Positions 10,151 to 57,392 of a DNA stretch of 64,000 bases are shown here, piece after piece. Source of the DNA: Minisyncoccota bacterium (GTDB lineage Bacteria > Patescibacteriota > Minisyncoccia > Minisyncoccales > Minisyncoccaceae); assembly GCA_041651955.1 (NCBI GenBank), contig JBAZIG010000001.1, positions 9,594-73,593 on the forward strand. Direction: 5' to 3'. Positions within the stretch are counted from its first letter, which is position 1. Each line of letters starts with the position of its first letter. The position numbers were made by a program, and so were the translations under genes. The notes beneath the pieces are model-generated. The model was given only the letters and a program-made list of their open reading frames with translations, did not search any database and was not told where the DNA came from.

Positions 10151-11092
10151 ATGAAAATAAAAGAAATTTTTGATTTAGCAATAAAGATGGGAATAGAGTC
10201 AGACCTTAGGGGCCCTATAATGGTAGAGAAGTTTTTGGATAGAAAAAAGAAAAAATACAATGCTTTAAGTAATGAAAAAAAAGAAGAGTTTGATATTGAA
10301 TCATTAACTAATCCATATTTGGATTCTAGAATCCATAATATATCAGAAGATAAAGAAATTAAAAAGATATTGTCTGGTATTGATACCGATACAGCAGAAT
10401 TGTTATTGGCAAAGCAGTTAGGAGTTGATTTAATTATTAGCCATCACCCTGTTGGCAAGGGATTATCTTGTTTGGGCGATGTTATGGAAATGCAGGCGGA
10501 TATTTATAATCAATACGGCGTGCCAATCAATGTTGCCGAAGCACTAAATAATCCTAGGATTGCCGAAGTTGCAAGAAGTGTTTCTTTTTCTAATCATCAA
10601 AAAAGTGTTGATTCATCAAAAATTATAGGAGTTAATTTTATAAACATTCATACCCCAGCAGATAATTTAGCGGCAAGATTTCTAAAAGATTTAATTGAAA
10701 GCAAAGAGTTAGAAACAGTTGAAGAATTGATTGATTTAATTAAAAAAATTCCTGAATATAAAGAAGCAATTAAAAATGGATCTGGTCCCAAGGCAATTAC
10801 AGGAAACCTTAATAATAGGTGTGGCAAAATTGCAATTACAGAAATTACAGGAGGAACAGAGGGTTCATCAAAATTAATGGAAGCGCTTTCTCAAGCAGGA
10901 ATTGGAACTGTTGTCGCTATGCATGCATCAGAAGACCATAGGAAAAAGGCAGAAGCTGCTCATATTAATATCGTAATTGCTGGACACATTTCTTCTGATT
11001 CTTTGGGGATGAATTTATTTTTAGACGAATTAGAGAAAAGAGGCATAGAAGTTATTCCTTTTAGTGGATTAACTAGATTTAAAAGGTTTTAA
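10151..11092 (+). CDS. Nif3-like dinuclear metal center protein (YbgI/YqfO family)
   Basis: Characteristic DLIISHHP motif and C-terminal AGHISSD metal-binding block. Confidence 0.85.
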   Translation: MKIKEIFDLAIKMGIESDLRGPIMVEKFLDRKKKKYNALSNEKKEEFDIESLTNPYLDSRIHNISEDKEIKKILSGIDTDTAELLLAKQLGVDLIISHHPVGKGLSCLGDVMEMQADIYNQYGVPINVAEALNNPRIAEVARSVSFSNHQKSVDSSKIIGVNFINIHTPADNLAARFLKDLIESKELETVEELIDLIKKIPEYKEAIKNGSGPKAITGNLNNRCGKIAITEITGGTEGSSKLMEALSQAGIGTVVAMHASEDHRKKAEAAHINIVIAGHISSDSLGMNLFLDELEKRGIEVIPFSGLTRFKRF

Positions 11093-12581
11093 CCATGTAG
11101 GTTTTAGAAAGTCGGTATCCTAATTTTTTTCTATAATAATCTCTTACTCCCACTCCTGAAATAATAGCAATTTTTCTTTTGTTTGCTATTTTTTCTGCTT
11201 CTCTAACCATTAACATTCCTAGGCCCTTGTGTTGAGACCCCTTTTTTGCTATTGGCGTTGCTTGACCATAAACATGAACTTCTCTAATTAGGGCTGTATT
11301 GCTATTATTGATTCTTAATCTTAATATAGAATATATATTTTTTCTGTTTTTATCTTCAAAACTTAAAAAAACTTCTTTACCATTTGAGGCCTCGTAGTCC
11401 TCCCTAAAAAGAAAAACTTCTTCATTTTTGATGTCTTTGATTTCTCTACATCTAATGCATTTGCATATTTTTTGTAAATCAATGAACTGTCTTAGGTTTG
11501 ATGATTTGGCTCCTCCCTCAACAATAAGTTGTGATGGGATGTCTCTAATAATTCTCTCAATTCTAACATAAATTGGAACATATTTTTTAATTTCATTAAT
11601 TGTTTTAATTAGAACATCTCTTGTATATGGCTTATATTTTCCTTTAAGATAAAGATTATATAGTGGAGCTTCTTTTACTAAAGCACATGGGTATATTTTT
11701 AAATAATCGGGCTTAAAATTAGGATTATTAAATAATTCTTTAAACATTTCAATGTCTCGTTTGGGATTTGAACCTGGGAGATTTAGCATCATTTGATAAG
11801 CAACTTTAAAACCAGCATTTTTAAGTAATTTCGTTGCTTCTATTGTTTCTTTGATTCCATGACCTCTTTTATTAAGTTCTAAAACATCATCATATAGTGA
11901 TTGAACGCCTAACTCTATTTTTGTAGCCCCCAACAGAAGTATTTCTTCTATTTCTTTTTGGTTAATAAAATCGGGCCTTGTTTCAAAAGACATTCCTATA
12001 ATTCTGTGTTTTGCTTTTTCATTTCTTTTTTGAGCTAATTTTAGTGTTTTGTCTTTTTTATCATTACAGGCCTCAAAACATTTTTTAACAAACCATTCTT
12101 TATATTTTTTGGTATAACTAGACCAGTTTCCTCCGATTAAACGAATTTCTATTTTATCAGTTGGATGGCCTCCTAACTCTAATGATTCAATACGATTTTT
12201 AACTTGTAAATAAGGATCATATTTTAATTTTTTAGCTCTTTCTACTGCTGGTTCGCCTGACAAGTAACTTTTAGGTATGTTTGTTTCTTTGGGGCAATAA
12301 ATACACTTTCCAGGGCAATCATATGGTTTAGTTAATACAGAAACGTTAACAACTCCCGATAGGGACCTTACGGGTCTAGTAACTAATAGTTTCTCAATGG
12401 TGTTATTTTTTTTAATTCTTTTTTTATTAACCAAACTATGATATTCTCTAAGCAGATCAATATTGCTTGGACAATTAATTTTATTTTCTTTGGCAAATTT
12501 TCTTTTAACAGAAGACAACTCCCTAGAAGAAGTGATATTTTTTTCTAAAATATAATTAATTATTAATTCATTATAATTCAT
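11079..12581 (-). CDS. elp3: Elp3-type radical SAM / GNAT acetyltransferase (tRNA U34 cm5-forming enzyme family)
   Basis: Radical SAM cluster motif CPGKCIYCP. Elp3 signature KYDPYLQVKNRIESLELGGHPTDKIEIRLIGGNW. C-terminal GNAT block QHKGLGMLMVREAEKIA. Confidence 0.85.
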   Translation of the reverse strand: MNYNELIINYILEKNITSSRELSSVKRKFAKENKINCPSNIDLLREYHSLVNKKRIKKNNTIEKLLVTRPVRSLSGVVNVSVLTKPYDCPGKCIYCPKETNIPKSYLSGEPAVERAKKLKYDPYLQVKNRIESLELGGHPTDKIEIRLIGGNWSSYTKKYKEWFVKKCFEACNDKKDKTLKLAQKRNEKAKHRIIGMSFETRPDFINQKEIEEILLLGATKIELGVQSLYDDVLELNKRGHGIKETIEATKLLKNAGFKVAYQMMLNLPGSNPKRDIEMFKELFNNPNFKPDYLKIYPCALVKEAPLYNLYLKGKYKPYTRDVLIKTINEIKKYVPIYVRIERIIRDIPSQLIVEGGAKSSNLRQFIDLQKICKCIRCREIKDIKNEEVFLFREDYEASNGKEVFLSFEDKNRKNIYSILRLRINNSNTALIREVHVYGQATPIAKKGSQHKGLGMLMVREAEKIANKRKIAIISGVGVRDYYRKKLGYRLSKTYMVKTF

Positions 12582-13215
12582 GGAAGATAGTAAAGCTAAA
12601 AAAATAATAAAGGAAACTATTGAGGATTATAACAGCATTTCAGAAAAATACTCAAGTGTTAGAAGTGGACCATGGAAAGAAATGAAGTTTCTTTTTGATA
12701 ACGTTGAAAAGAGTGACAAGGTTTTAGATTTGGGCTGTGGCAATGGAAGGTTTTATGAATATCTAAAACATTCTCAATATGTTGGGATTGATCCCTCAAC
12801 AAAATTGATTAAAATATGCAAGAAAAGATATCCGGAAGCAAGTTTTAGGGTTGGAAACGGAAATGCACTTCCTTTTAGAGATAAACTATTTGATAGTATA
12901 TTTAGCATTGCGGTTTTACATCATATTCCAAGCGAAAAATTGAGGAAAGATTTTTTAATGGAAATAAAAAGGGTTCTTAAAAAAAATGGTGTTCTTACTT
13001 TAACGGTATGGAATTTAAAAGAAAAAGCAAAAATGGAAAAGGATTTATTTCTTCCTTGGTACAGCGAAAAAGAAACATATTTTTATTGTTTTAATTTAAA
13101 AGAGCTGGTACAATTAGTGAAAGATGTCGGTTTTGATGTTATCTCTAGCGGGGAGGTCTTGGTAGGAAAAAAGCCGTATTCTAATTTTTATATAATATGT
13201 CAAAAAAAGAAATAA
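12580..13215 (+). CDS. Trm9/ALKBH8-type class I SAM-dependent methyltransferase
   Basis: Matches the yeast Trm9 blocks recalled from memory: DYNSISEKYSSVRSGPW (Trm9 VYNEIAPHFSQTRYKPW), LDLGCGNG, FSIAVLHH (ISIAVVHH), DLFLPW (DVFVPW). Not aligned by software. Confidence 0.65.
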   Translation: MEDSKAKKIIKETIEDYNSISEKYSSVRSGPWKEMKFLFDNVEKSDKVLDLGCGNGRFYEYLKHSQYVGIDPSTKLIKICKKRYPEASFRVGNGNALPFRDKLFDSIFSIAVLHHIPSEKLRKDFLMEIKRVLKKNGVLTLTVWNLKEKAKMEKDLFLPWYSEKETYFYCFNLKELVQLVKDVGFDVISSGEVLVGKKPYSNFYIICQKKK

Positions 13216-13775
13216 AATATAATATAGTTGTTTCTGGTGCTGCTGAGGTTGGTCATTGCTGTGAAAATATTGAGGAAATATCAAAAGAAGTAGGAAGAGA
13301 AATTGCTAGACAAGGCCATACTCTTGTAACTGGAGCAACAACAGGGGTACCGTATTTTTCAGCTGTTGGCTGTAACGAAGAAGAAGGATTTAATATTGGT
13401 TTTTCTCCTGCGTCTACAGAAAGCCAGCATCTTAAGTCGTATAGATTGCCCCTGGACCCCTTTAATATTATGATATATACTGGAGCCGATTATGTTGGAA
13501 GAGATGTTGTTATGACCAAGTCAGCTGATGCAGTAATTATTATTTGTGGAAGGACAGGAACACTTCACGAGTTTACCGTAGCCGTTGAAGCTAAAAAGAT
13601 AATTGCTGTCTTAGAGGGCACAGGGGGAATGGCTGATAAAATAAGGGGGATTATTGAAAGCTACTGCAAGGTCTCTAATAAAATTATTTACGAAAGAAAT
13701 CCAAAGAAATTAATAGAAAGATTAATTAAAGAAATTGAAACAAAAAAGAAAAAGGCATCTAAATTATTAAAATAA
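13197..13775 (+). CDS. LOG/SLOG-superfamily Rossmann protein (TIGR00725-like)
   Basis: VVSGAA...GHTLVTGATTG and IIICGRTGTLHEF motifs, typical of LOG/TIGR00725-type proteins. Confidence 0.55.
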   Translation: MSKKEIKYNIVVSGAAEVGHCCENIEEISKEVGREIARQGHTLVTGATTGVPYFSAVGCNEEEGFNIGFSPASTESQHLKSYRLPLDPFNIMIYTGADYVGRDVVMTKSADAVIIICGRTGTLHEFTVAVEAKKIIAVLEGTGGMADKIRGIIESYCKVSNKIIYERNPKKLIERLIKEIETKKKKASKLLK

Positions 13776-17976: not shown

Positions 17977-18592
17977 CAAAGTAATTAAAAATTTAATATT
18001 AACTGATATTGCCTTTTGGACTGGTTGGGGAATGATAACGCCTGTTTTTGCTATATTCGTTGTTGACAGGGTTATTGGTGGGACAGCATTAACTGTTGGA
18101 ATAGCAACTGCCATTTATTGGATATTAAGAGCTTCTTTAGTTTTTCCTTTTGCTAAAATACTGGACAAGTATGCTGGAGACAAAGATGACTACTTGTTTT
18201 TAGTTTTCGGAAACTTTTTAGCAGCTCTAGTTCCATTTGGTTATATATTTGCAATTTATCCATGGCACATCTATGCCTTACAAGTTATTTATGGAGTTGG
18301 AATTGCTATGTCTTTAGTTGGTTGGAGAGCAATTTTTACAAGAAATATAACTAAAGGCAAAGAAGCAAGTGAATGGGCGATGGATGATGCTTCTTTGAGT
18401 GTGGGAGTAGCATTGGCCGGAATATTTACTGGTTTTGTTATAACTCAATGGGGATATATTGTTGCTTTTAGTATCGCTGGATTTCTTGCAATGATGAGCG
18501 TGGTAATTCTCTTATGCTTAAGAAAGCAGATTGAGGGTGTTTTTAATAGAAAATTTCCCTTTAATATTGTGGATATTTTCAGAGGAAAATGA
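17966..18592 (+). CDS. six-TM membrane protein, MFS-half-like
   Basis: Hydrophobicity pattern only. At 208 aa it is about half the length of a normal MFS transporter. Confidence 0.4.
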   Translation: MENNKVIKNLILTDIAFWTGWGMITPVFAIFVVDRVIGGTALTVGIATAIYWILRASLVFPFAKILDKYAGDKDDYLFLVFGNFLAALVPFGYIFAIYPWHIYALQVIYGVGIAMSLVGWRAIFTRNITKGKEASEWAMDDASLSVGVALAGIFTGFVITQWGYIVAFSIAGFLAMMSVVILLCLRKQIEGVFNRKFPFNIVDIFRGK

Positions 18593-20274
18593 AAAATCAG
18601 GAAATTGCTCAAATTTTATTTGAAATTGGCGATTTGTTGGACTTACAAGAAGTTCCTTTTAAACCAGAAGCATATAAAAAGGCAGCCATTGCAATTGATT
18701 TATTAGAAGATGATATATCTTCAATATATGAAAAAGAAGGAATTAAGGGACTAGAAAAAATCAAAGGGGTTGGCAAGAGCATTGCCTTATCAATTGAAGA
18801 ATATCTTAAAACAAACAAAATTAATTTCTATAAACAACTTAAAAAAGAGTCACCAGTTAATCTAGAAGAATTATTAATGGTTGAGGGTCTGGGGGTTAAA
18901 AAAATAAAAAAACTTTATCAAGAATTAAAAATTAGGAACCTAAAGGATTTAGAAAAAGCAATTGAAGATAATAAAATTGCTCAACTTTTTGGTTTTGGAG
19001 AAAAAACAGAAAAAAATATCTTAGAATCAATTAAGTTTTTAAGACAAGGCCAAAATAAATTTCTCTTAAGAGATGTTTTAAAAGAAGTGGAAATGGTGAG
19101 TGATAAAATTAAAAGAATCAAAGAGGTTGTTGATTTTAGTGTTGCTGGTTCAGCTAGGAGAAAAAAAGAGATTGTTGGCGATGTTGATTTTCTTGTTTCA
19201 ATTAAGGACACTAGCAATAAATACGTGGTTGAAAAAATAATGAATACCTTTGTGACAATGGATAATGTTGTCAAAGTAATTGGAAAGGGAGAAACAAAAT
19301 CATCAATAAAAACAAACAATAATTTGAATATGGATTTAAGATTGGTTAGCGTTGCTTCTTTTGGGGCTGCTTTACAGTATTTTACTGGTTCTAAAGACCA
19401 TAATATCGCCTTAAGAAGGATTGCAATCAAAAAAGGTTACAAGCTTAACGAATATGGACTTTTTGATGGAGAAAAGAAAATAGCCGGTCAAACTGAAGAG
19501 GGTATTTATAAAAAGCTTGGACTTCAGTTTATTCCTCCAGAGTTAAGAGAAAATCAGGGAGAAATTAATTTAGCCATCAATAATATGATTCCCTATTTAG
19601 TAGATTCCGTTAAGGGAGATCTTCATTGCCATACATCTTATAATGGTGGAGAGAACACAATAGAAGAAATGGCAGAAGAAGCAATTAAAATGGGTTATTC
19701 TTATCTGGCAATTACAGATCACAGCAAATCACTAAGAATTGAAAATGGACTAGATGAAAAAAGATTATTAGAACAAAAGAAAGAAATAGATAAATTGAAT
19801 AAAAAATATAATAATTTTAAATTACTTTCGGGAGCAGAGGTTGATATTTTGAAAGACGGATCTTTAGATATTGACGACAGTGTCCTTAAAGAGATTGATT
19901 ATGTTTCTATTAGCATTCATTCTGGTTTTAAAATGACAAAAACAGAAATGACTAAAAGAATACTTAAAGCGATGGATAATCCTTATGTTAAAACATTAAA
20001 TCATCCTACGGGTGCTATTGTAGGCAAAAGAGATAGTTATTTAGTTGATATGGAATCAATAATTAAGAAAGCAAAAGAAAAAGGAATCGCTTTGGAAATT
20101 AATTCATATAGATGCGATCTAAATAGTCAATTAGTAAAAATGGCTAAAAACGCAGGAGTAAAATTAGTAATTAATAGCGATGCTCATAATAAAAAAGAAT
20201 TGCACAACATTCAATTTGGAATATATGTTGCAAGGAGAGCAGGACTAACAAAAGAAGATATATATGAAATATAA
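18589..20274 (+). CDS. polX: family X DNA polymerase with C-terminal PHP domain (PolX)
   Basis: HhH motifs (GVGKSIA, GLGVKKI), catalytic GDVDFLV, and PHP motifs (GDLHCHTSYNGG, ITDHS, NSDAH). Confidence 0.9.
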   Translation: MKNQEIAQILFEIGDLLDLQEVPFKPEAYKKAAIAIDLLEDDISSIYEKEGIKGLEKIKGVGKSIALSIEEYLKTNKINFYKQLKKESPVNLEELLMVEGLGVKKIKKLYQELKIRNLKDLEKAIEDNKIAQLFGFGEKTEKNILESIKFLRQGQNKFLLRDVLKEVEMVSDKIKRIKEVVDFSVAGSARRKKEIVGDVDFLVSIKDTSNKYVVEKIMNTFVTMDNVVKVIGKGETKSSIKTNNNLNMDLRLVSVASFGAALQYFTGSKDHNIALRRIAIKKGYKLNEYGLFDGEKKIAGQTEEGIYKKLGLQFIPPELRENQGEINLAINNMIPYLVDSVKGDLHCHTSYNGGENTIEEMAEEAIKMGYSYLAITDHSKSLRIENGLDEKRLLEQKKEIDKLNKKYNNFKLLSGAEVDILKDGSLDIDDSVLKEIDYVSISIHSGFKMTKTEMTKRILKAMDNPYVKTLNHPTGAIVGKRDSYLVDMESIIKKAKEKGIALEINSYRCDLNSQLVKMAKNAGVKLVINSDAHNKKELHNIQFGIYVARRAGLTKEDIYEI

Positions 20275-21154
20275 ATGTTTATTGCTTTTTTCTGGTGGCC
20301 TTGATTCTATTCTTGCGGCAAAGATATTAGAAGAAAGTGGCGTAAAAGTTACTCCAATTTGTTTTAAGAGTTTTTTCTTTTCTTGTGAACAAGCACAAAA
20401 ATCAGCTAAAATTATCGGATTTAAATTAAGGGTGGAAGATATTAGTGACATTCACTTGAGAATGATTAAAAATCCTAAACATGGAAGAGGTAAAGGACTT
20501 AATCCTTGCATAGATTGTCATCTATTAATGATTAAAACAGCAGGAAAAATAATGAAAAAAGAGGGCTTTGATTTCATAGCCACTGGCGAGGTTTTAGGTC
20601 AGCGTCCGATGTCTCAAAACATTAATGCTCTTAAAATAATTGACAAAGAAGCTAAATTAAATGGTTTAATTGTTCGCCCACTATCAGCCAAACTATTACC
20701 ACCAACTATTTGGGGCGATGGTAAATATTCAATATCTGGCAAATCAAGAGATGGTCAGATAAAATTAGCTAAGAAATTTAAAATTAAAAAATATCCAAAC
20801 CCAGCTGGTGGGTGCATATTAACTGATGCTAATTATTCAGATAATCTTAAAAGGTTAATAGACATTAAGCCATCTTTTTCTGGTAATGATGTTTTATTAT
20901 TGAGAGAGGGAAGAGTTTTTTGGAAAAATGACTTGCTAATAATTGTAGCGAGAAACGAAAAGGAATCTAATGAATTGATTAAATTTAAAAAAATAGGGGA
21001 TGTTGTTCTAGCCCCAGATAATTTTCCTGGCCCAACAGTATTTATTCGTAAATACAAAAAATCATCTCAAGAAGAGATGATTGATTGTGCGGTGAAATAT
21101 ATTACTAAATATTCTAAAAATATTACGCTTTCACCTTCTCTAAAATTTTTATAA
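20264..21154 (+). CDS. PP-loop ATP pyrophosphatase, ThiI/MnmA-like tRNA sulfurtransferase core without a THUMP domain
   Basis: PP-loop SGGLDS, CxxC (CIDC), and GEVLGQRPMSQ / VRPLSA blocks that resemble the ThiI C-terminal domain. Confidence 0.55.
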   Translation: MKYKCLLLFSGGLDSILAAKILEESGVKVTPICFKSFFFSCEQAQKSAKIIGFKLRVEDISDIHLRMIKNPKHGRGKGLNPCIDCHLLMIKTAGKIMKKEGFDFIATGEVLGQRPMSQNINALKIIDKEAKLNGLIVRPLSAKLLPPTIWGDGKYSISGKSRDGQIKLAKKFKIKKYPNPAGGCILTDANYSDNLKRLIDIKPSFSGNDVLLLREGRVFWKNDLLIIVARNEKESNELIKFKKIGDVVLAPDNFPGPTVFIRKYKKSSQEEMIDCAVKYITKYSKNITLSPSLKFL

Positions 21155-54970: not shown

Positions 54971-54999
54971 TTGACAGGATCTTTTTAGGAATGTAAAAT
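54971..54999 (+). promoter_or_regulatory. candidate promoter of nrdD (leaderless geometry)
   Basis: Consensus TTGACA (54971-54976), 17 nt, TAAAAT (54994-54999), 7 nt, ATG 55007. The -35 is the right arm of the inverted repeat TGTCAA-aa-TTGACA (54963-54976). Confidence 0.5.
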
Positions 55000-55006
55000 G
55001 ATTAGT

Positions 55007-57127
55007 ATGACAACAAAAAACCACATTACTAAAGTTCAAAAAAGAAACGGAGATATTGTAGAATTTGTACCAGATAAGATTTTCAGTGCCGTTTTTAAAG
55101 CAATTACTGCAACCAAGCAAGGTAATGGCAAAAAAACTCAACACATTTCAGATTGTGTTATAAAAATTCTTAATAGAAGGTTTAAAAAAGATGAAATTCC
55201 TAACGTTGAACAAATCCAGGATATCGTAGAAGAAGTTTTAATTTTAGAAGGAGAAGCAATTGCAGCAAAGGGATTCATATTATACAGAGAACAAAGAAGA
55301 ATAATTAGAGAATCGCAACTAACTGCCGAAGAAGCAGTTGATAGAGTAGATGATTATCTAGACAAGCTTGATTGGGAGGTTCAGGAGAATTCAAATATGA
55401 CTTTTTCTTTGCAGGGGCTTAATCATTATGGTGTTTCCTATATCGTAAAAAAGTATTGGTTAAATAAAGTTTATCCTGCCGAAGTAAGAGAAGCAAACCA
55501 ATCAGGAGATATTCATTTACACAACCTAGACACTCTTGCATGCTACTGTGTTGGTTGGGATTTATATGATTTATTGCTAAAAGGTTTTGGTGGCGTTAAT
55601 GGTAAAATTGAATCATCTCCACCCAAGCATTTTAGATCAGCCCTAGGACAAGTAGTTAACTTTATGTATACTCTTCAGGGAGAAGCAGCTGGTGCAGTTT
55701 CATTCTCTAATTTTGATACCCTTTTAGCTCCATTTATTCGCTATGATAATTTAAGTTATCCTCAGGTTGAACAAGCAATACAAGAATTTTTGTATAATAT
55801 GGCTGTTCCTACAAGGGTGGGCTTCCAATGTCCTTTTACAAATGTGACACTGGATTTAAAACCAGCATCTACTTTTGCTAATCAAAGTGTTATAGTTGGT
55901 GGCATTCCTCAAAAAGAAACATATTCTGAATTTGAAGAAGAAATGAAAATGCTTGATAAGGCCTTTTATACGTCAATGATCAAAGGAGATAAAACAGGAA
56001 GACCATTTTCTTTCCCAATCCCTACAATAAACATTACACCTGATTTTCCATGGGAAGATCCAGCATTAGATCCATTATTTGAGGCATCAGCAAAATACGG
56101 GATAAATTATTTTGCCAATTATGTTAATTCTGATATGAAGCCAGAGGATGCTCGTTCAATGTGTTGTCGTTTGCGACTAGATATGACTCAATTAGCGAAT
56201 AGGGGTGGTGGTGGGTTATTTGGCTCTGGATCTTTAACTGGAAGTATTGGAGTAGTGACAATTAATTTGCCAAGAATAGGTTATTTATCTAAAACAAAAA
56301 AAGAATTTTTTGAAAGATTAGAAAAAATGATGGATATTGCTAAAGAAAGTCTAGAGATTAAAAGAAAAACCATTGAAGAGTTTACCTCTAAAGGTCTTTA
56401 TCCTTATTCTAAGCACTATTTATCAGGAGTTAAAAAGGCGAAGGGGCAATATTTTGCAAACCATTTTTCTACAATTGGAATTTGCGGAATGAATGAAGCG
56501 CTGCTTAATTTTATGGGAGAGGATATTGGCTCAAAGAAAGGAAGGACTTTTACATTAGAGGTGATGAACTTTATGAGAGACATTCTTATAAAATATCAAA
56601 ACGAGACAAAGAATATATATAATCTAGAGGCCACTCCTGCTGAATCAACATCTTATAGATTTGCTCAAAAAGATAGAAAACTTTATCCCGACATCATTGC
56701 CTTGGGAACTAAAAAGGTTCCATATTATACCAACTCAACTCAATTACCAGTAAATTATACAGATGATATTTTTGAAGAAGTTAAACTTCAAGACGAAATA
56801 CAATGTAAATATACTGGTGGAACCGTAGAGCATATTTTTATCGGAGAAGAAATATCGGACATTGAATCAGTTAAATCATTAGTAAGAAGAATTTTTGAAA
56901 AGAATAGATTGCCTTATATTACAATTACTCCAACATTTTCAATTTGTCCTACTCATGGCTATATTGCTGGAAAACACTTTAATTGTCCTAAGTGTGCGAT
57001 TGAACAACCATGCGAAGTTTATTCCAGAGTAGTGGGATATTTAAGGCCAGTTTCTCAATGGAACGAGGGCAAACAACAAGAATTTAAAGACAGGAAAGAG
57101 TTCAAGAAGTCATTATTTAAAAAATAA
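55007..57127 (+). CDS. nrdD: anaerobic ribonucleoside-triphosphate reductase (class III, NrdD) with N-terminal ATP-cone
   Basis: ATP-cone (VQKRNGDIVEF), NrdD core blocks (CCRLRLD), C-terminal Cys/His cluster and glycyl-radical loop YSRVVGYLRP. ATG 55007 is preferred over the track start 54998, which overlaps the -10. Confidence 0.95.
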   Translation: MTTKNHITKVQKRNGDIVEFVPDKIFSAVFKAITATKQGNGKKTQHISDCVIKILNRRFKKDEIPNVEQIQDIVEEVLILEGEAIAAKGFILYREQRRIIRESQLTAEEAVDRVDDYLDKLDWEVQENSNMTFSLQGLNHYGVSYIVKKYWLNKVYPAEVREANQSGDIHLHNLDTLACYCVGWDLYDLLLKGFGGVNGKIESSPPKHFRSALGQVVNFMYTLQGEAAGAVSFSNFDTLLAPFIRYDNLSYPQVEQAIQEFLYNMAVPTRVGFQCPFTNVTLDLKPASTFANQSVIVGGIPQKETYSEFEEEMKMLDKAFYTSMIKGDKTGRPFSFPIPTINITPDFPWEDPALDPLFEASAKYGINYFANYVNSDMKPEDARSMCCRLRLDMTQLANRGGGGLFGSGSLTGSIGVVTINLPRIGYLSKTKKEFFERLEKMMDIAKESLEIKRKTIEEFTSKGLYPYSKHYLSGVKKAKGQYFANHFSTIGICGMNEALLNFMGEDIGSKKGRTFTLEVMNFMRDILIKYQNETKNIYNLEATPAESTSYRFAQKDRKLYPDIIALGTKKVPYYTNSTQLPVNYTDDIFEEVKLQDEIQCKYTGGTVEHIFIGEEISDIESVKSLVRRIFEKNRLPYITITPTFSICPTHGYIAGKHFNCPKCAIEQPCEVYSRVVGYLRPVSQWNEGKQQEFKDRKEFKKSLFKK
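57017..57097 (+). repeat. direct repeat copy 1 (81 nt, the nrdD 3' end encoding the glycyl-radical loop)
   Basis: 77/81 identical to 57297-57377. Codon-aligned in both genes. Confidence 0.9.
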
Positions 57128-57131
57128 AACT

Positions 57132-57392
57132 ATGAATTGTCATGATTGCAACAAAGAAATAATATTTGATGGCGAAGAAATAAAAAATGGAAAGTTATTA
57201 AAATACTCTTTACCTAACGGAGAAGAAAAGATGATTTACAAATGCAATGATTGTTTTTCTAAAGATCAAAGTTTGAGAAATTATCAAGAGACAGAGGTTT
57301 ATTCCAGAGTAGTAGGATATTTAAGGCCAGTTTCTCAATGGAATGAAGGCAAACAAAAAGAATTTAAAGACAGGAAAACCTTTAATATATGA
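57132..57392 (+). CDS. 86-aa zinc-ribbon protein carrying a copy of the NrdD glycyl-radical C-terminal loop
   Basis: CHDC...CNDC knuckles, then EVYSRVVGYLRPVSQWNEGKQKEFKDRK (26/27 identical to the NrdD C-terminus). It lies 4 nt after the nrdD stop and has an ATGA overlap with nrdG. Confidence 0.7.
   Translation: MNCHDCNKEIIFDGEEIKNGKLLKYSLPNGEEKMIYKCNDCFSKDQSLRNYQETEVYSRVVGYLRPVSQWNEGKQKEFKDRKTFNI
57297..57377 (+). repeat. direct repeat copy 2 (81 nt)
   Basis: Four mismatches to copy 1: GTG/GTA, AAC/AAT, GAG/GAA (all synonymous) and CAA/AAA (Q/K). Confidence 0.9.

What the first reader, a model, noticed from the sequence alone, without database searches (positions are those of the whole stretch)
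11079..13215. Divergent Elp3 / Trm9-type methyltransferase pair: a possible (m)cm5U34 tRNA wobble pathway in a bacterium
Seen: the minus-strand 500-aa ORF has the full Elp3 architecture. It carries the radical SAM motif CPGKCIYCP, the Elp3 block KYDPYLQV...GGHPTDKIEIRLIGGNW and the C-terminal GNAT block QHKGLGMLMVREAEKIA. The head-to-head 211-aa ORF matches the Trm9/ALKBH8 methyltransferase blocks I recall from yeast Trm9 (SxxRxxPW, LDLGCGNG, SIAVLHH, DLFLPW). It is not merely a generic class I fold. Established: in eukaryotes Elp3 (Elongator) makes cm5U34 and Trm9 (with Trm112) methylates it to mcm5U. Archaeal and a few bacterial Elp3 homologues are known. Bacteria normally use MnmE/MnmG or CmoA/CmoB chemistry at U34. 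Inference: the physical pairing suggests that both steps operate here. The next gene, coupled by a 19-nt overlap, is a LOG/SLOG-type protein. A THUMP-less PP-loop sulfurtransferase at 20264-21154 could supply the s2 step.
Basis: partly seen in the sequence, partly recalled or inferred. Interest (0 to 1): 0.7.

Follow-up and report, generated by a model that had tools for sequence, protein, structure and literature searches.

The report
Bacterial Elp3–Trm9 tRNA wobble-uridine gene pair
A small candidate-phyla-radiation bacterium carries, back to back, the two enzymes that eukaryotes and archaea use to turn the tRNA wobble uridine into mcm5U, and the same pair recurs across dozens of such bacteria and next to the well-studied Dehalococcoides Elp3, so this "non-bacterial" pathway is probably widespread in two bacterial lineages.

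Summary
11079-12581(-) is a full-length Elp3: TIGR01211 scores 528.6 bits against a cutoff of 350. 12580-13215(+) is a 211-aa class I methyltransferase. Their start codons share one CATG.

Curated libraries call the methyltransferase generic. Four independent tests place it with Trm9:
- It is the top hit by sequence, by profile and by fold to the Yarrowia Trm9 structure.
- hhalign against fungal Trm9 gives E = 2.5e-32.
- A fungal Trm9 HMM scores it 59-116 bits in 80 of 80 related genomes, against 25 bits or less for any other ORF.
- Eight of ten experimentally mapped Trm9 active-site residues are present. The family consensus has ten of ten.

Elp3 lies beside the methyltransferase in 73 of 80 species-level Patescibacteria genomes (72 divergent, 1 tandem). 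The same holds in 4 of 4 informative Chloroflexota loci, including the crystallised Dehalococcoides mccartyi Elp3.

No Trm112 gene is nearby, and the Trm112-binding patch is charged instead of hydrophobic, so the enzyme probably works alone.

The suggested s2-thiolation link to the PP-loop gene is not supported. MnmE/MnmG status could not be tested.

Most likely function: Elp3 makes cm5U34 and the Trm9-type enzyme makes mcm5U34. No held paper describes a bacterial Trm9.

The parts
11079..12581 (-). Elp3: a radical-SAM plus GNAT/KAT tRNA U34 carboxymethyl (cm5U) synthase, 500 aa, with the archaeal-type basic N-terminal extension.
   Evidence: - TIGR01211 scores 528.6 bits (cutoff 350), end to end.
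- Pfam finds Radical_SAM and Radical_SAM_C.
- PDB: M. infernus Elp3 scores 414.7 bits, D. mccartyi Elp3 350.4 and eukaryotic Elp3 311-320.
- The Fe-S motif CPGKCIYCP, the Zn motif CKCIRC and the acetyl-CoA motif QHKGLG all align with the structures.
12580..13215 (+). Trm9-type class I SAM methyltransferase, 211 aa. Predicted to be a cm5U34 to mcm5U34 carboxyl O-methyltransferase.
   Evidence: - PDB top hit is 5cm2_Z (Yarrowia Trm9): 51.8 bits for the single sequence and 80.7 bits with the family profile, against 70.7 for the next chain.
- hhalign against fungal Trm9: probability 99.9%, E = 2.5e-32, 199 columns.
- AF2 model pLDDT is 94.1. Foldseek top hit is 5cm2_Z, E = 2.8e-16, TM 0.84.
- Y17, R28, D71, H114, H115, W144, W160 and N202 correspond to ScTrm9 Y18, R29, D72, H115, H116, W145, W168 and N271.
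- T166 and F168 replace R241 and Y243.
12579..12582 (.). Shared CATG. The start codons of the two divergent genes overlap by 2 nt, so there is no intergenic spacer.
   Evidence: - Sequence read directly.
- Across 72 divergent loci the estimated start-to-start gap has a median of 7 nt and is 100 nt or less in 58. The most common value is -2, the same CATG overlap.
13197..13775 (+). SLOG (LDcluster4) protein, overlapping the methyltransferase by 19 nt. A syntenic neighbour whose role in the pathway is not established.
   Evidence: - PF18306 scores 115.9 bits. TIGR00725 scores 76.1, below its cutoff of 106.9.
- Closest solved structures are 1rcu (TM1055, function unknown) and the Moco carrier protein.
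- It lies downstream of the methyltransferase in 22 (ORF clustering) to 27 (tblastn) of 80 loci, all in the Paceibacteria-like subset.
10151..11092 (+). NIF3/DUF34 protein, convergent with Elp3 with a 14-nt overlap of the 3' ends. A syntenic neighbour whose role is not established.
   Evidence: - PF01784 scores 40.3 bits (cutoff 23.4).
- It is found beside Elp3 in 21 of 80 loci by ORF clustering and in about 25 by tblastn.

Best explanation
The two divergent genes encode a two-step pathway that modifies the tRNA wobble uridine, of the type known from archaea and eukaryotes.

1. **Step 1 (inferred from family membership and published biochemistry of homologues).** Elp3 uses its [4Fe-4S]/SAM radical domain and its acetyl-CoA-binding KAT domain to attach a carboxymethyl group to C5 of U34, giving cm5U34. 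It acts as a stand-alone enzyme, as archaeal and Dehalococcoides Elp3 do.
2. **Step 2 (inferred from conserved Trm9 active-site residues and conserved gene linkage).** The adjacent Trm9-type methyltransferase binds SAM and the cm5U34 nucleotide. R28 and H115 position the carboxylate, H114 and N202 read the uracil, and W144 stacks on it. The enzyme methyl-esterifies cm5U34 to mcm5U34.
3. **Partner protein (inferred from interface residues and the absence of a nearby Trm112 gene).** Unlike eukaryotic and haloarchaeal Trm9, the bacterial enzyme probably works without Trm112.
4. **Regulation.** The two genes are regulated as a unit from promoters buried in each other's coding sequence, because no intergenic DNA exists.

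The same module is present across Patescibacteria and in Dehalococcoidia.
For: **Elp3 membership.** TIGR01211 scores 528.6 bits against a cutoff of 350. The protein scores 414.7 and 350.4 bits to solved archaeal and bacterial Elp3, with the Fe-S, Zn and acetyl-CoA motifs aligned.

**Trm9 assignment.**
- Top PDB hit by phmmer.
- Top by family profile, with a 10-bit margin.
- Top by Foldseek on a pLDDT-94 model.
- hhalign against 15 fungal Trm9 sequences gives E = 2.5e-32. The alignment is end to end and includes the N-terminal substrate helix.
- A fungal Trm9 HMM scores the Elp3-linked methyltransferase 59-116 bits in 80 of 80 loci. No other ORF of 100 aa or more in 1.08 Mb of the same genomes exceeds 25 bits. 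Two extra class I methyltransferases next to Elp3 in L047 and L066 do not hit at all.

**Residue test against the mutagenesis data of PMC4678810.** Conservation in 80 CPR proteins is Y17 74, R28 79, D71 80, H114 76, H115 76, W144 80, W160 64 (plus 13 F) and N202 78. The R241 equivalent is Arg in 68 of 80. The next-best PDB hits lack the HH pair.

**Linkage.** Elp3 lies beside the methyltransferase in 73 of 80 GTDB species genomes, down to 32% methyltransferase identity. Seventy-two pairs are divergent and 1 (L068) is tandem. The same divergent pair, with a Trm9-like methyltransferase of 67-77 bits, occurs in 4 of 4 informative Chloroflexota loci, including D. mccartyi CP019867.1.

**Precedent.** H. 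volcanii Trm9-Trm112 makes mcm5U, and Elp3 and Trm9 cluster in Sulfolobus (PMC6144793).

**Trm112 independence.** No Trm112-like ORF was found in the window or conserved near the pair. Interface positions Yl V59 and F78 are hydrophobic in 100% and 93% of fungal Trm9 but in only 7% and 4% of bacterial proteins, where they are K/R and D/E. The window protein has Arg at the position where ScTrm9 L91R disrupts the complex.
Against: - No tRNA nucleoside data exist for any of these organisms. PMC7663514 states that direct evidence for xcm5U34 in Elp3-bearing bacteria is lacking.
- Pfam and NCBIfam give only generic methyltransferase hits, and nothing passes a curated family cutoff.
- The margins over generic methyltransferases in the PDB searches are modest: 2 bits for the single sequence, 10 bits for the profile, and about 6-fold in Foldseek E-value.
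- The window protein and its close relatives lack the ScTrm9 R241 equivalent (T/C) and have F in place of Y243. Both alanine mutants lose at least 10-fold activity in yeast.
- W160 is F in 13 of 80 proteins.
- Trm112 could be encoded elsewhere, since only 64 kb of the genome is visible.
- DmcElp3 showed only very weak activity in vitro (PMC7663514).
Confidence: 0.75

Rival explanations
1. The chemistry is the same, but the methyltransferase is an obligate Trm9-Trm112 holoenzyme as in eukaryotes and Haloferax, with a small Trm112 (YcaR-like) zinc-knuckle protein encoded elsewhere in the genome.
For: - All characterised Trm9 enzymes need Trm112 (PMC4678810, PMC6144793).
- Bacteria commonly encode roughly 60-aa Trm112 orthologues of unknown function (PMC5372719).
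- F104 and D105 (Yl F116 and D117, interface residues) are conserved.
- Only 64 kb of the genome was visible.
Against: - There is no Trm112-like ORF in the window or conserved within 6 kb of the pair in 80 loci.
- The central hydrophobic interface positions V59 and F78 are charged in about 95% of bacterial proteins, and V102 is Arg in the window protein.
- F and D at Yl 116/117 are a generic class I motif, so their conservation says little.
Confidence: 0.25
2. The methyltransferase is functionally tied to Elp3 but makes something other than mcm5U. It could methylate a different Elp3-derived intermediate or another atom of the modified wobble base, or act on a different tRNA position, so the end product is a new or different xm5U derivative.
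For: - The window subclade has lost the R241 equivalent, which contacts the cm5U carboxylate in the docking model, and has Y243F.
- The fate of cm5U in archaea is already more complex than expected: an unidentified isomer peak was seen in H. volcanii (PMC6144793).
- Extra conserved neighbours (SLOG, an 89-aa beta-barrel, NIF3) and, in two loci, a second methyltransferase hint at further steps.
Against: - The carboxylate-positioning pair R28/H115 and the uracil-reading H114/N202 are nearly invariant.
- 68 of 80 family members retain the full RYYH block.
- The extra neighbours are confined to one subclade.
Confidence: 0.12
3. The methyltransferase is a generic UbiE/UbiG-like small-molecule or protein methyltransferase, and its position next to Elp3 is inherited synteny with no functional meaning.
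For: - Source annotations mostly say UbiE or SAM-dependent methyltransferase.
- Pfam gives only Methyltransf_11/25/31/23 and a weak Ubie_methyltran hit of 31.7 bits.
Against: - Every UbiE/MenG/UbiG/BioC/CmoB model is far below its cutoff.
- The linkage survives down to 32% identity, an orientation change (L068) and a phylum change to Chloroflexota.
- Trm9-specific residues are conserved and are absent from the generic PDB neighbours.
- CPR bacteria have reduced metabolism, and no other quinone-pathway gene is apparent in the window (inspection of the ORF translations).
Confidence: 0.03

Closest known systems
Eukaryotic Elongator (Elp3) followed by Trm9-Trm112 (yeast) or ALKBH8-TRMT112 (human): cm5U34 to mcm5U34
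   Same: The two enzyme families and the predicted chemistry are the same. The Elp3 domain architecture matches. The Trm9 fold, the N-terminal substrate helix and 8 to 10 of 10 mapped active-site residues match.
   Different: - There are no Elp1/2/4/5/6 subunits, as in all prokaryotes.
- The genes are physically paired.
- No Trm112 is detected, and the Trm112-binding patch is charged.
- There are no AlkB or RRM domains as in ALKBH8.
- The window protein has T and F in place of R241 and Y243.
Archaeal stand-alone Elp3 plus Trm9-Trm112 (Haloferax volcanii HVO_1032; Elp3/Trm9 gene cluster in Sulfolobus solfataricus)
   Same: Elp3 is a single subunit with an extended basic N-terminus and the 3-Cys zinc motif. 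The window Elp3 is closer to M. infernus Elp3 (414.7 bits) than to the bacterial DmcElp3 (350.4). Elp3-Trm9 clustering and mcm5U formation are documented in archaea (PMC6144793).
   Different: The host is a bacterium. Haloferax Trm9 requires Trm112 in vivo, whereas here the interface looks incompatible. I could not obtain archaeal Trm9 sequences for a direct comparison.
Dehalococcoides mccartyi Elp3 (DmcElp3, PDB 5L7J), the reference bacterial Elp3
   Same: It is a bacterial stand-alone Elp3. Its gene also has a divergent Trm9-like methyltransferase 43 nt upstream, scoring 76.8 bits to the Trm9 HMM with the R, D, HH, W, PW, RYY and N residues.
   Different: DmcElp3 lacks the long basic N-terminus that the window Elp3 has. 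The held reviews describe bacterial Elp3 as confined to Dehalococcoides and do not mention a Trm9 partner.
Canonical bacterial U34 pathways: MnmE/MnmG (plus MnmC) for (c)mnm5U, and CmoA/CmoB for cmo5U/mcmo5U
   Same: They target the same nucleotide (U34 C5) and serve the same physiological purpose, which is tuning wobble decoding.
   Different: The enzymes and chemistry are unrelated. The methyltransferase scores only 37.9 bits to CmoB TIGR00452 against a cutoff of 275. No MnmE- or MnmG-like ORF is in the window, but the rest of the genome is unseen.

Membership tests
Elp3 (TIGR01211) | End-to-end match to the curated Elp3 model: radical SAM domain, Radical_SAM_C and a C-terminal GNAT/KAT domain | tested here: met
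   528.6 bits against a cutoff of 350, residues 7-499 on model positions 2-521 of 522. Pfam finds PF04055 and PF16199.
Elp3 (TIGR01211) | Radical-SAM Fe-S cysteine triad, the 3-Cys zinc motif of prokaryotic Elp3, and the acetyl-CoA binding Q/RxxGxG motif | tested here: met
   CPGKCIYCP is identical to DmcElp3. CKCIRC aligns with CRCIRC in both MinElp3 and DmcElp3. QHKGLG aligns with QHMGYG and QHRGLG. The motifs are described in PMC6367351.
Elp3 (TIGR01211) | tRNA-dependent acetyl-CoA hydrolysis and cm5U34 formation | not testable with these tools
   This needs biochemistry.
Trm9 / ALKBH8 methyltransferase domain (tRNA cm5U34 O-methyltransferase) | Closest characterised relative is Trm9 by sequence, profile and fold | tested here: met
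   - 5cm2_Z ranks first in phmmer (51.8 bits against 49.9), in the profile search (80.7 against 70.7) and in Foldseek (2.8e-16 against 1.7e-15).
- hhalign gives E = 2.5e-32.
- The Trm9 HMM separates it from other ORFs, 59-116 bits against 25 or less.
- The margins in the PDB searches are modest.
Trm9 / ALKBH8 methyltransferase domain (tRNA cm5U34 O-methyltransferase) | Active-site residues shown by mutagenesis to be required (ScTrm9 R29, D72, H116, W145, W168, R241, Y243, N271, plus H115 and Y18) | tested here: met
   The window protein has 8 of 10: Y17, R28, D71, H114, H115, W144, W160 and N202. R241 is T166 and Y243 is F168. The family of 80 has the R241 equivalent as Arg in 68 and the other positions conserved in 64-80 of 80.
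Trm9 / ALKBH8 methyltransferase domain (tRNA cm5U34 O-methyltransferase) | Obligate partnership with Trm112, which shields a hydrophobic patch and forms a beta-zipper | tested here: inconclusive
   No Trm112-like ORF was found in the window or near the pair. Interface core positions are charged in bacterial proteins. The whole genome was not available, so a distant Trm112 gene cannot be excluded.
Trm9 / ALKBH8 methyltransferase domain (tRNA cm5U34 O-methyltransferase) | Passes a curated family model | tested here: inconclusive
   Pfam and NCBIfam returned no Trm9-specific hit. Only generic methyltransferase domains pass their cutoffs. Some JGI records name homologues TRM9 or ALKBH8.
Trm9 / ALKBH8 methyltransferase domain (tRNA cm5U34 O-methyltransferase) | Elp3-dependent, SAM-dependent methylation of cm5U34 to mcm5U34 | not testable with these tools
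   This needs an enzyme assay on trm9-delta and elp3-delta tRNA, or LC-MS/MS.
UbiE/MenG and UbiG quinone methyltransferases | Score above the curated cutoff of TIGR01934, PRK00216 or TIGR01983 | tested here: not met
   49.7 bits against 158.35, 49.0 against 216, and 29.7 against 102.95.
CmoB (bacterial U34 cmo5U synthase) | Score above the curated cutoff of TIGR00452 | tested here: not met
   37.9 bits against 275. 4p7c scores 22.2 bits in the PDB search.
SLOG LDcluster4 (PF18306), for ORF 13197-13775 | Score above the Pfam gathering cutoff | tested here: met
   115.9 bits against 26.3. TIGR00725 is not met, at 76.1 against 106.9.
s2U34 sulfurtransferases (MnmA; Ncs6/TtuA type), for ORF 20264-21154 | Score above the curated MnmA or TtuA cutoffs | tested here: not met
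   - MnmA NF001138 scores 25.7 bits against 284, TIGR00420 24.5 against 237, and TtuA NF049949 16.5 against 450.
- The best domain is the ThiI PP-loop (PF02568, 44.4 bits), together with NFACT-R_2 at 30.2.
- The only PDB hit is ThiI 2c5s at 21.5 bits.

The most novel reading that the evidence does not exclude
Patescibacteria and Dehalococcoidia run a complete archaeal/eukaryotic-type xcm5U34 wobble pathway in place of the bacterial MnmE/MnmG system. Its second enzyme is a Trm9 that has dispensed with Trm112. That would be the first stand-alone Trm9, and a tractable model for why eukaryotic Trm9 needs an activator. In Paceibacteria the conserved block NIF3 - Elp3 | Trm9 - SLOG - 89-aa beta-barrel would contribute further, still unknown, steps or cofactor handling for this pathway.
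Probability: 0.3. Interest if true: 0.75.

Novelty: new member of a known kind. Interest (0 to 1): 0.6.

Why it matters
- **It changes the picture of bacterial wobble modification.** mcm5U-type wobble modification is treated as a eukaryotic and archaeal trait. Bacteria are described as using MnmE/MnmG or CmoA/CmoB. A 2017 review states that no bacterial homologues of Trm112-partner methyltransferases could be detected (PMC5372719). A 2020 review confines bacterial Elp3 to Dehalococcoides and notes that there is no evidence for the downstream products (PMC7663514).
- **It supplies the missing second step.** A Trm9-type gene is welded to Elp3 in at least 73 species-level Patescibacteria genomes, and it also sits next to the crystallised DmcElp3. 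This gives the field a concrete prediction (mcm5U34 in these bacteria) and a small, probably Trm112-independent enzyme to test.
- **It corrects annotation.** About a thousand proteins are currently labelled UbiE or generic methyltransferase.
- **It bears on evolution.** It is relevant to how reduced-genome symbionts decode split codon boxes, and to archaea-bacteria gene transfer, because the window Elp3 is more similar to archaeal Elp3 than to DmcElp3.

Tried and rejected
- **Curated libraries.** Pfam and NCBIfam scans of the methyltransferase gave only generic class I hits, so they cannot decide the family.
- **Exhaustive representative search with the CPR profile.** It found 677 representatives at E ≤ 1e-30, but the 150 listed all lie inside the family. 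It did not show what lies at the family boundary.
- **Trm112 hunt.** Zinc-knuckle pattern scans of the window found only an Fpg zinc finger and a zinc ribbon next to the ribonucleotide reductase. Scans of 80 loci found only a LysW-like ribbon in two Magasanikbacteria loci. Nothing was conserved.
- **MnmE/MnmG.** No such ORF is among the 21 window ORFs of 380 aa or more. However, 64 kb is too little to conclude absence.
- **Literature.** Glatt 2016 (PMC5018218) and Selvadurai 2014 (PMC4479141) are not held. I therefore cannot exclude that the Dehalococcoides neighbour was mentioned there. Searches combining Elp3 with Patescibacteria, CPR, MnmG or "bacterial Trm9" found nothing relevant.
- **PP-loop gene 20264-21154 as the s2U34 enzyme.** Rejected as unsupported. 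It is a ThiI-like PP-loop with NFACT-R_2, far below the MnmA and TtuA cutoffs, and lies near the pair in 3 of 80 loci.
- **Promoter scan of the junction.** It found one good minus-strand site inside the methyltransferase ORF (12655-12626, 10 of 12 matches). The total number of sites equals that in shuffled sequence (5 against 4.6), so this is not evidence.
- **SLOG function.** The PDB gives only uncharacterised or Moco-carrier relatives, so no function was assigned.
- **Second methyltransferases in L047 and L066.** I first suspected Trm9 paralogues, but they do not match the Trm9 HMM.

Full report
**Observation**

The window has low G+C (about 30%), and its closest relatives are Patescibacteria/CPR metagenome-assembled genomes.

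- All the quoted peptide strings are present.
- The genes are head-to-head, and their start codons overlap in the palindrome CATG at 12579-12582.
- The next ORF, 13197-13775(+), overlaps the methyltransferase by 19 nt and is a SLOG protein (PF18306, 115.9 bits).
- The ORF at 20264-21154 has a ThiI-type PP-loop domain without THUMP, plus a C-terminal NFACT-R_2 domain.

**Elp3**

Membership is unambiguous.

- TIGR01211 scores 528.6 bits against a curated cutoff of 350 and aligns end to end.
- In the PDB the protein scores 414.7 bits to Methanocaldococcus infernus Elp3, 350.4 to Dehalococcoides mccartyi Elp3 and 311-320 to eukaryotic Elp3.
- The Fe-S cysteine motif (CPGKCIYCP), the prokaryote-specific three-cysteine zinc motif (CKCIRC) and the acetyl-CoA motif (QHKGLG) all align with the structures. 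These features are described in PMC6367351.
- Unlike DmcElp3, the window protein has about 70 N-terminal residues rich in Lys and Arg. This is the archaeal-type extension that PMC6367351 reports as important for substrate recognition.

**Is the methyltransferase a Trm9?**

Curated libraries cannot say. Pfam gives Methyltransf_11/25/31/23, and every NCBIfam model is far below its cutoff, including UbiE/MenG (49.7 against 158), UbiG (29.7 against 103) and CmoB (37.9 against 275). I therefore used five independent tests.

1. **PDB sequence search.** The best chain is 5cm2_Z, the Trm9 subunit of the Yarrowia Trm9-Trm112 complex. It scores 51.8 bits against 49.9 for the next chain with the single sequence. 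With a profile of 23 family members the scores are 80.7 against 70.7.
2. **Fold.** An AlphaFold2 model (mean pLDDT 94.1, pTM 0.91) has 5cm2_Z as its best Foldseek match (E = 2.8e-16, TM 0.84 normalised to the target). The next match is 3sm3 at 1.7e-15.
3. **Profile-profile comparison.** The family aligns with 15 fungal Trm9 sequences, retrieved with the Yarrowia sequence, at 99.9% probability and E = 2.5e-32 over 199 columns. The alignment includes the N-terminal helix that closes over the substrate.
4. **Discrimination.** An HMM built from fungal Trm9 was run against every ORF of 100 aa or more in 1.08 Mb of CPR DNA (80 loci plus the window).
   - It scores the Elp3-linked methyltransferase at 59-116 bits in every locus.
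   - No other ORF exceeds 25 bits.
   - Two extra class I methyltransferases that sit next to Elp3 in L047 and L066 do not hit the Trm9 HMM at all.
5. **Residues.** PMC4678810 maps the Trm9 active site by mutagenesis. D72A, H116A, W145A and W168A are inactive. R29A, R241A, Y243A and N271A lose at least 10-fold activity. H115 and Y18 contact the base and the carboxylate in the docking model. The table shows the equivalents in the window protein and their conservation in 80 Elp3-linked CPR proteins.

| ScTrm9 residue | Window protein | Conserved in 80 CPR proteins |
|---|---|---|
| Y18 | Y17 | 74 |
| R29 | R28 | 79 |
| D72 | D71 | 80 |
| H115 | H114 | 76 |
| H116 | H115 | 76 |
| W145 | W144 | 80 |
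| W168 | W160 | 64 (plus 13 Phe) |
| R241 | T166 | Arg in 68 |
| Y243 | F168 | Tyr in 37, Phe in 15 |
| N271 | N202 | 78 |

The window protein and its nearest relatives are the exception at the R241 position, with T or C. The neighbouring generic methyltransferases in the PDB lists lack the HH pair.

Taken together, the family is orthologous or at least isofunctional to Trm9. The window protein is a slightly derived member.

**Gene linkage**

I scanned one genome per GTDB species with the family profile. At least 420 stretches encode relatives, and the best 80 loci are all Patescibacteria. They include Paceibacteria, Nealson-, Portnoy-, Lloyd-, Magasanik-, Campbell- and Kuenenbacteria, Gracilibacteria and Peregrinibacteria.

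- Elp3 is in the locus in 73 of 80.
- Of the 7 loci without Elp3, L034 and L080 are cut off immediately upstream of the methyltransferase, and L064 has under 1 kb of upstream sequence. Four (L032, L060, L072, L078) have room but no Elp3.
- 72 pairs are divergent and 1 (L068, Gracilibacteria) is a co-directional tandem.
- The estimated start-to-start distance has a median of 7 nt and is 100 nt or less in 58 of 72. The most common state is the same 2-nt CATG overlap.
- The linkage persists down to 32% methyltransferase identity and 39% Elp3 identity.

**Beyond CPR**

Using the DmcElp3 sequence I retrieved Chloroflexota Elp3 proteins and their contigs.

- In D. mccartyi CP019867.1, the organism whose Elp3 was crystallised, a 224-aa methyltransferase lies divergently 43 nt upstream of Elp3.
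- The same arrangement is seen in three further genomes. A fifth contig is cut at the Elp3 start and is uninformative.
- All four methyltransferases score 67-77 bits against the fungal Trm9 HMM.
- In the two I aligned (L081 and L082), R, D, HH, W, PW, RYY and N are all present.

**Trm112**

Every characterised Trm9 needs Trm112, which covers a hydrophobic patch (YlTrm9 V59, F78, V102, A110, P112, F116). ScTrm9 N89K, L91R and F105E break the complex.

- I found no Trm112-like zinc-knuckle ORF in the window and none conserved within 6 kb of the pair in 80 loci.
- At V59 the bacterial proteins have Lys or Arg. Only 7% are hydrophobic, against 100% in fungi.
- At F78 they have Asp or Glu. Only 4% are hydrophobic, against 93% in fungi.
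- At V102, 54% are hydrophobic, against 93% in fungi. The window protein has Arg there, which is the natural equivalent of the disruptive L91R mutation.

This is indirect evidence, but it points to a stand-alone enzyme.

**Other neighbours**

In the Paceibacteria-like subset the pair sits in a larger syntenic block: NIF3/DUF34, then Elp3 on the opposite strand, then the methyltransferase, SLOG, an approximately 89-aa beta-barrel protein and a PHP-domain protein.

- The window has NIF3 and SLOG but not the last two.
- These neighbours occur in 18-27 of 80 loci, so they are not obligatory parts of the module. Their roles are unknown.
- The PP-loop gene proposed as the s2 step is far below the MnmA and TtuA cutoffs. 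It resembles only the ThiI PP-loop domain and lies near the pair in 3 of 80 loci. I do not count it as part of the system.

**What could not be tested**

- Presence or absence of mnmE/mnmG and of Trm112 in the whole genome. The window has neither, but it is only 64 kb.
- Which tRNAs are substrates. The only tRNA gene in the window is tRNA-Leu(CAA).
- Any chemistry.

**Literature**

- PMC6144793 shows that H. volcanii Trm9-Trm112 makes mcm5U and cites Elp3/Trm9 clustering in Sulfolobus.
- PMC5372719 states that no homologues of eukaryotic Trm112-partner methyltransferases could be detected in bacteria.
- PMC7663514 describes bacterial Elp3 as confined to Dehalococcoides, with no direct evidence of xcm5U34 products.
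- PMC13315578 (2026) speaks of Elp3 in "numerous bacteria" without mentioning Trm9 in that context.
- No held paper links Elp3 with CPR/Patescibacteria or describes a bacterial Trm9.
- The 2016 DmcElp3 structure paper is not held, so I cannot rule out a remark there.
- Some automated JGI annotations already name homologues TRM9 or ALKBH8.

**Verdict**

- It is a bacterial member of a known pathway (Elp3 to cm5U, Trm9 to mcm5U).
- Two features deserve experiments: the apparent independence from Trm112, and the extreme head-to-head fusion of the two genes.
- The pair is widespread in Patescibacteria and present in Dehalococcoidia, which makes it directly testable in D. mccartyi.
- Confidence in the two-step mcm5U reading is about 0.75, and interest is about 0.6.

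Noticed in passing
window 12579-12582; also L001, L014, L019, L029, L048 and other loci: The divergent Elp3 and methyltransferase start codons share a CATG with no intergenic DNA. Across 72 divergent loci the median start-to-start gap is 7 nt and the most common value is -2. Both promoters must therefore lie inside the partner gene's coding sequence. One good minus-strand -35/-10 match sits at 12655-12626 inside the methyltransferase ORF, but the number of sites is no higher than in shuffled sequence.
   Followed up: partly
L081 5283-7380 (D. mccartyi CP019867.1); L082, L084, L085: The crystallised Dehalococcoides Elp3 gene has a divergent Trm9-like methyltransferase 43 nt upstream. In these Chloroflexota loci QueH, a GNAT acetyltransferase and RuvB are also syntenic on the methyltransferase side.
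   Followed up: partly
window 10151-11092 (+); 21-25 of 80 loci: A NIF3/DUF34 gene converges on Elp3, with a 14-nt overlap of the 3' ends in the window, and is a recurrent neighbour of Elp3 in Paceibacteria-like genomes. Whether it serves Elp3, for example in metal or cluster handling, is unknown.
   Followed up: no
L001 9206-9481 and 25 other loci; absent from the window: A conserved roughly 89-aa ORF follows SLOG in 26 loci. It has only weak similarity to EF-Tu domain 2 and the peptidase U32 C-terminal beta-barrel, both below Pfam cutoffs. It is often followed by a roughly 415-aa PHP-domain protein (PHP_C hit).
   Followed up: partly
L047 7240-7920 (-); L066 5459-6112 (-): Two loci carry a second class I methyltransferase (Methyltransf_23 type) on the same strand as Elp3 and immediately adjacent to it. 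It does not match the Trm9 HMM, so it may be an additional or alternative step.
   Followed up: partly
window 20264-21154 (+): A PP-loop ATPase (ThiI-type domain, SGGLDS motif) is fused to a C-terminal NFACT-R_2 RNA-binding domain in place of THUMP. It is probably an RNA thiolase of unknown target. It is not linked to the Elp3 pair.
   Followed up: partly
window 12580-13215, residue T166 (and F168): The window protein and its closest relatives (all 23 sequences of alignment A1) have lost the Arg equivalent to ScTrm9 R241, which 68 of 80 CPR homologues keep. This could mean reduced activity, a compensating residue or altered substrate handling in this subclade.
   Followed up: partly
NCBIfam TIGR01211 annotation: The NCBIfam product name for Elp3 reads 'tRNA uridine(34) 5-carboxymethylaminomethyl modification', whereas the papers read here describe the product as 5-carboxymethyl (cm5U). 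The name propagates into bacterial genome annotations.
   Followed up: no
window 18589-20274 (+) and 54998-57392 (+): By inspection of the translations only, the window also appears to encode a 561-aa PolX-like protein with a C-terminal PHP domain, and a 709-aa ribonucleotide-reductase-like protein followed by an 86-aa four-Cys zinc-ribbon ORF. The zinc ribbon was picked up in the Trm112 pattern scan and is not Trm112-like.
   Followed up: no
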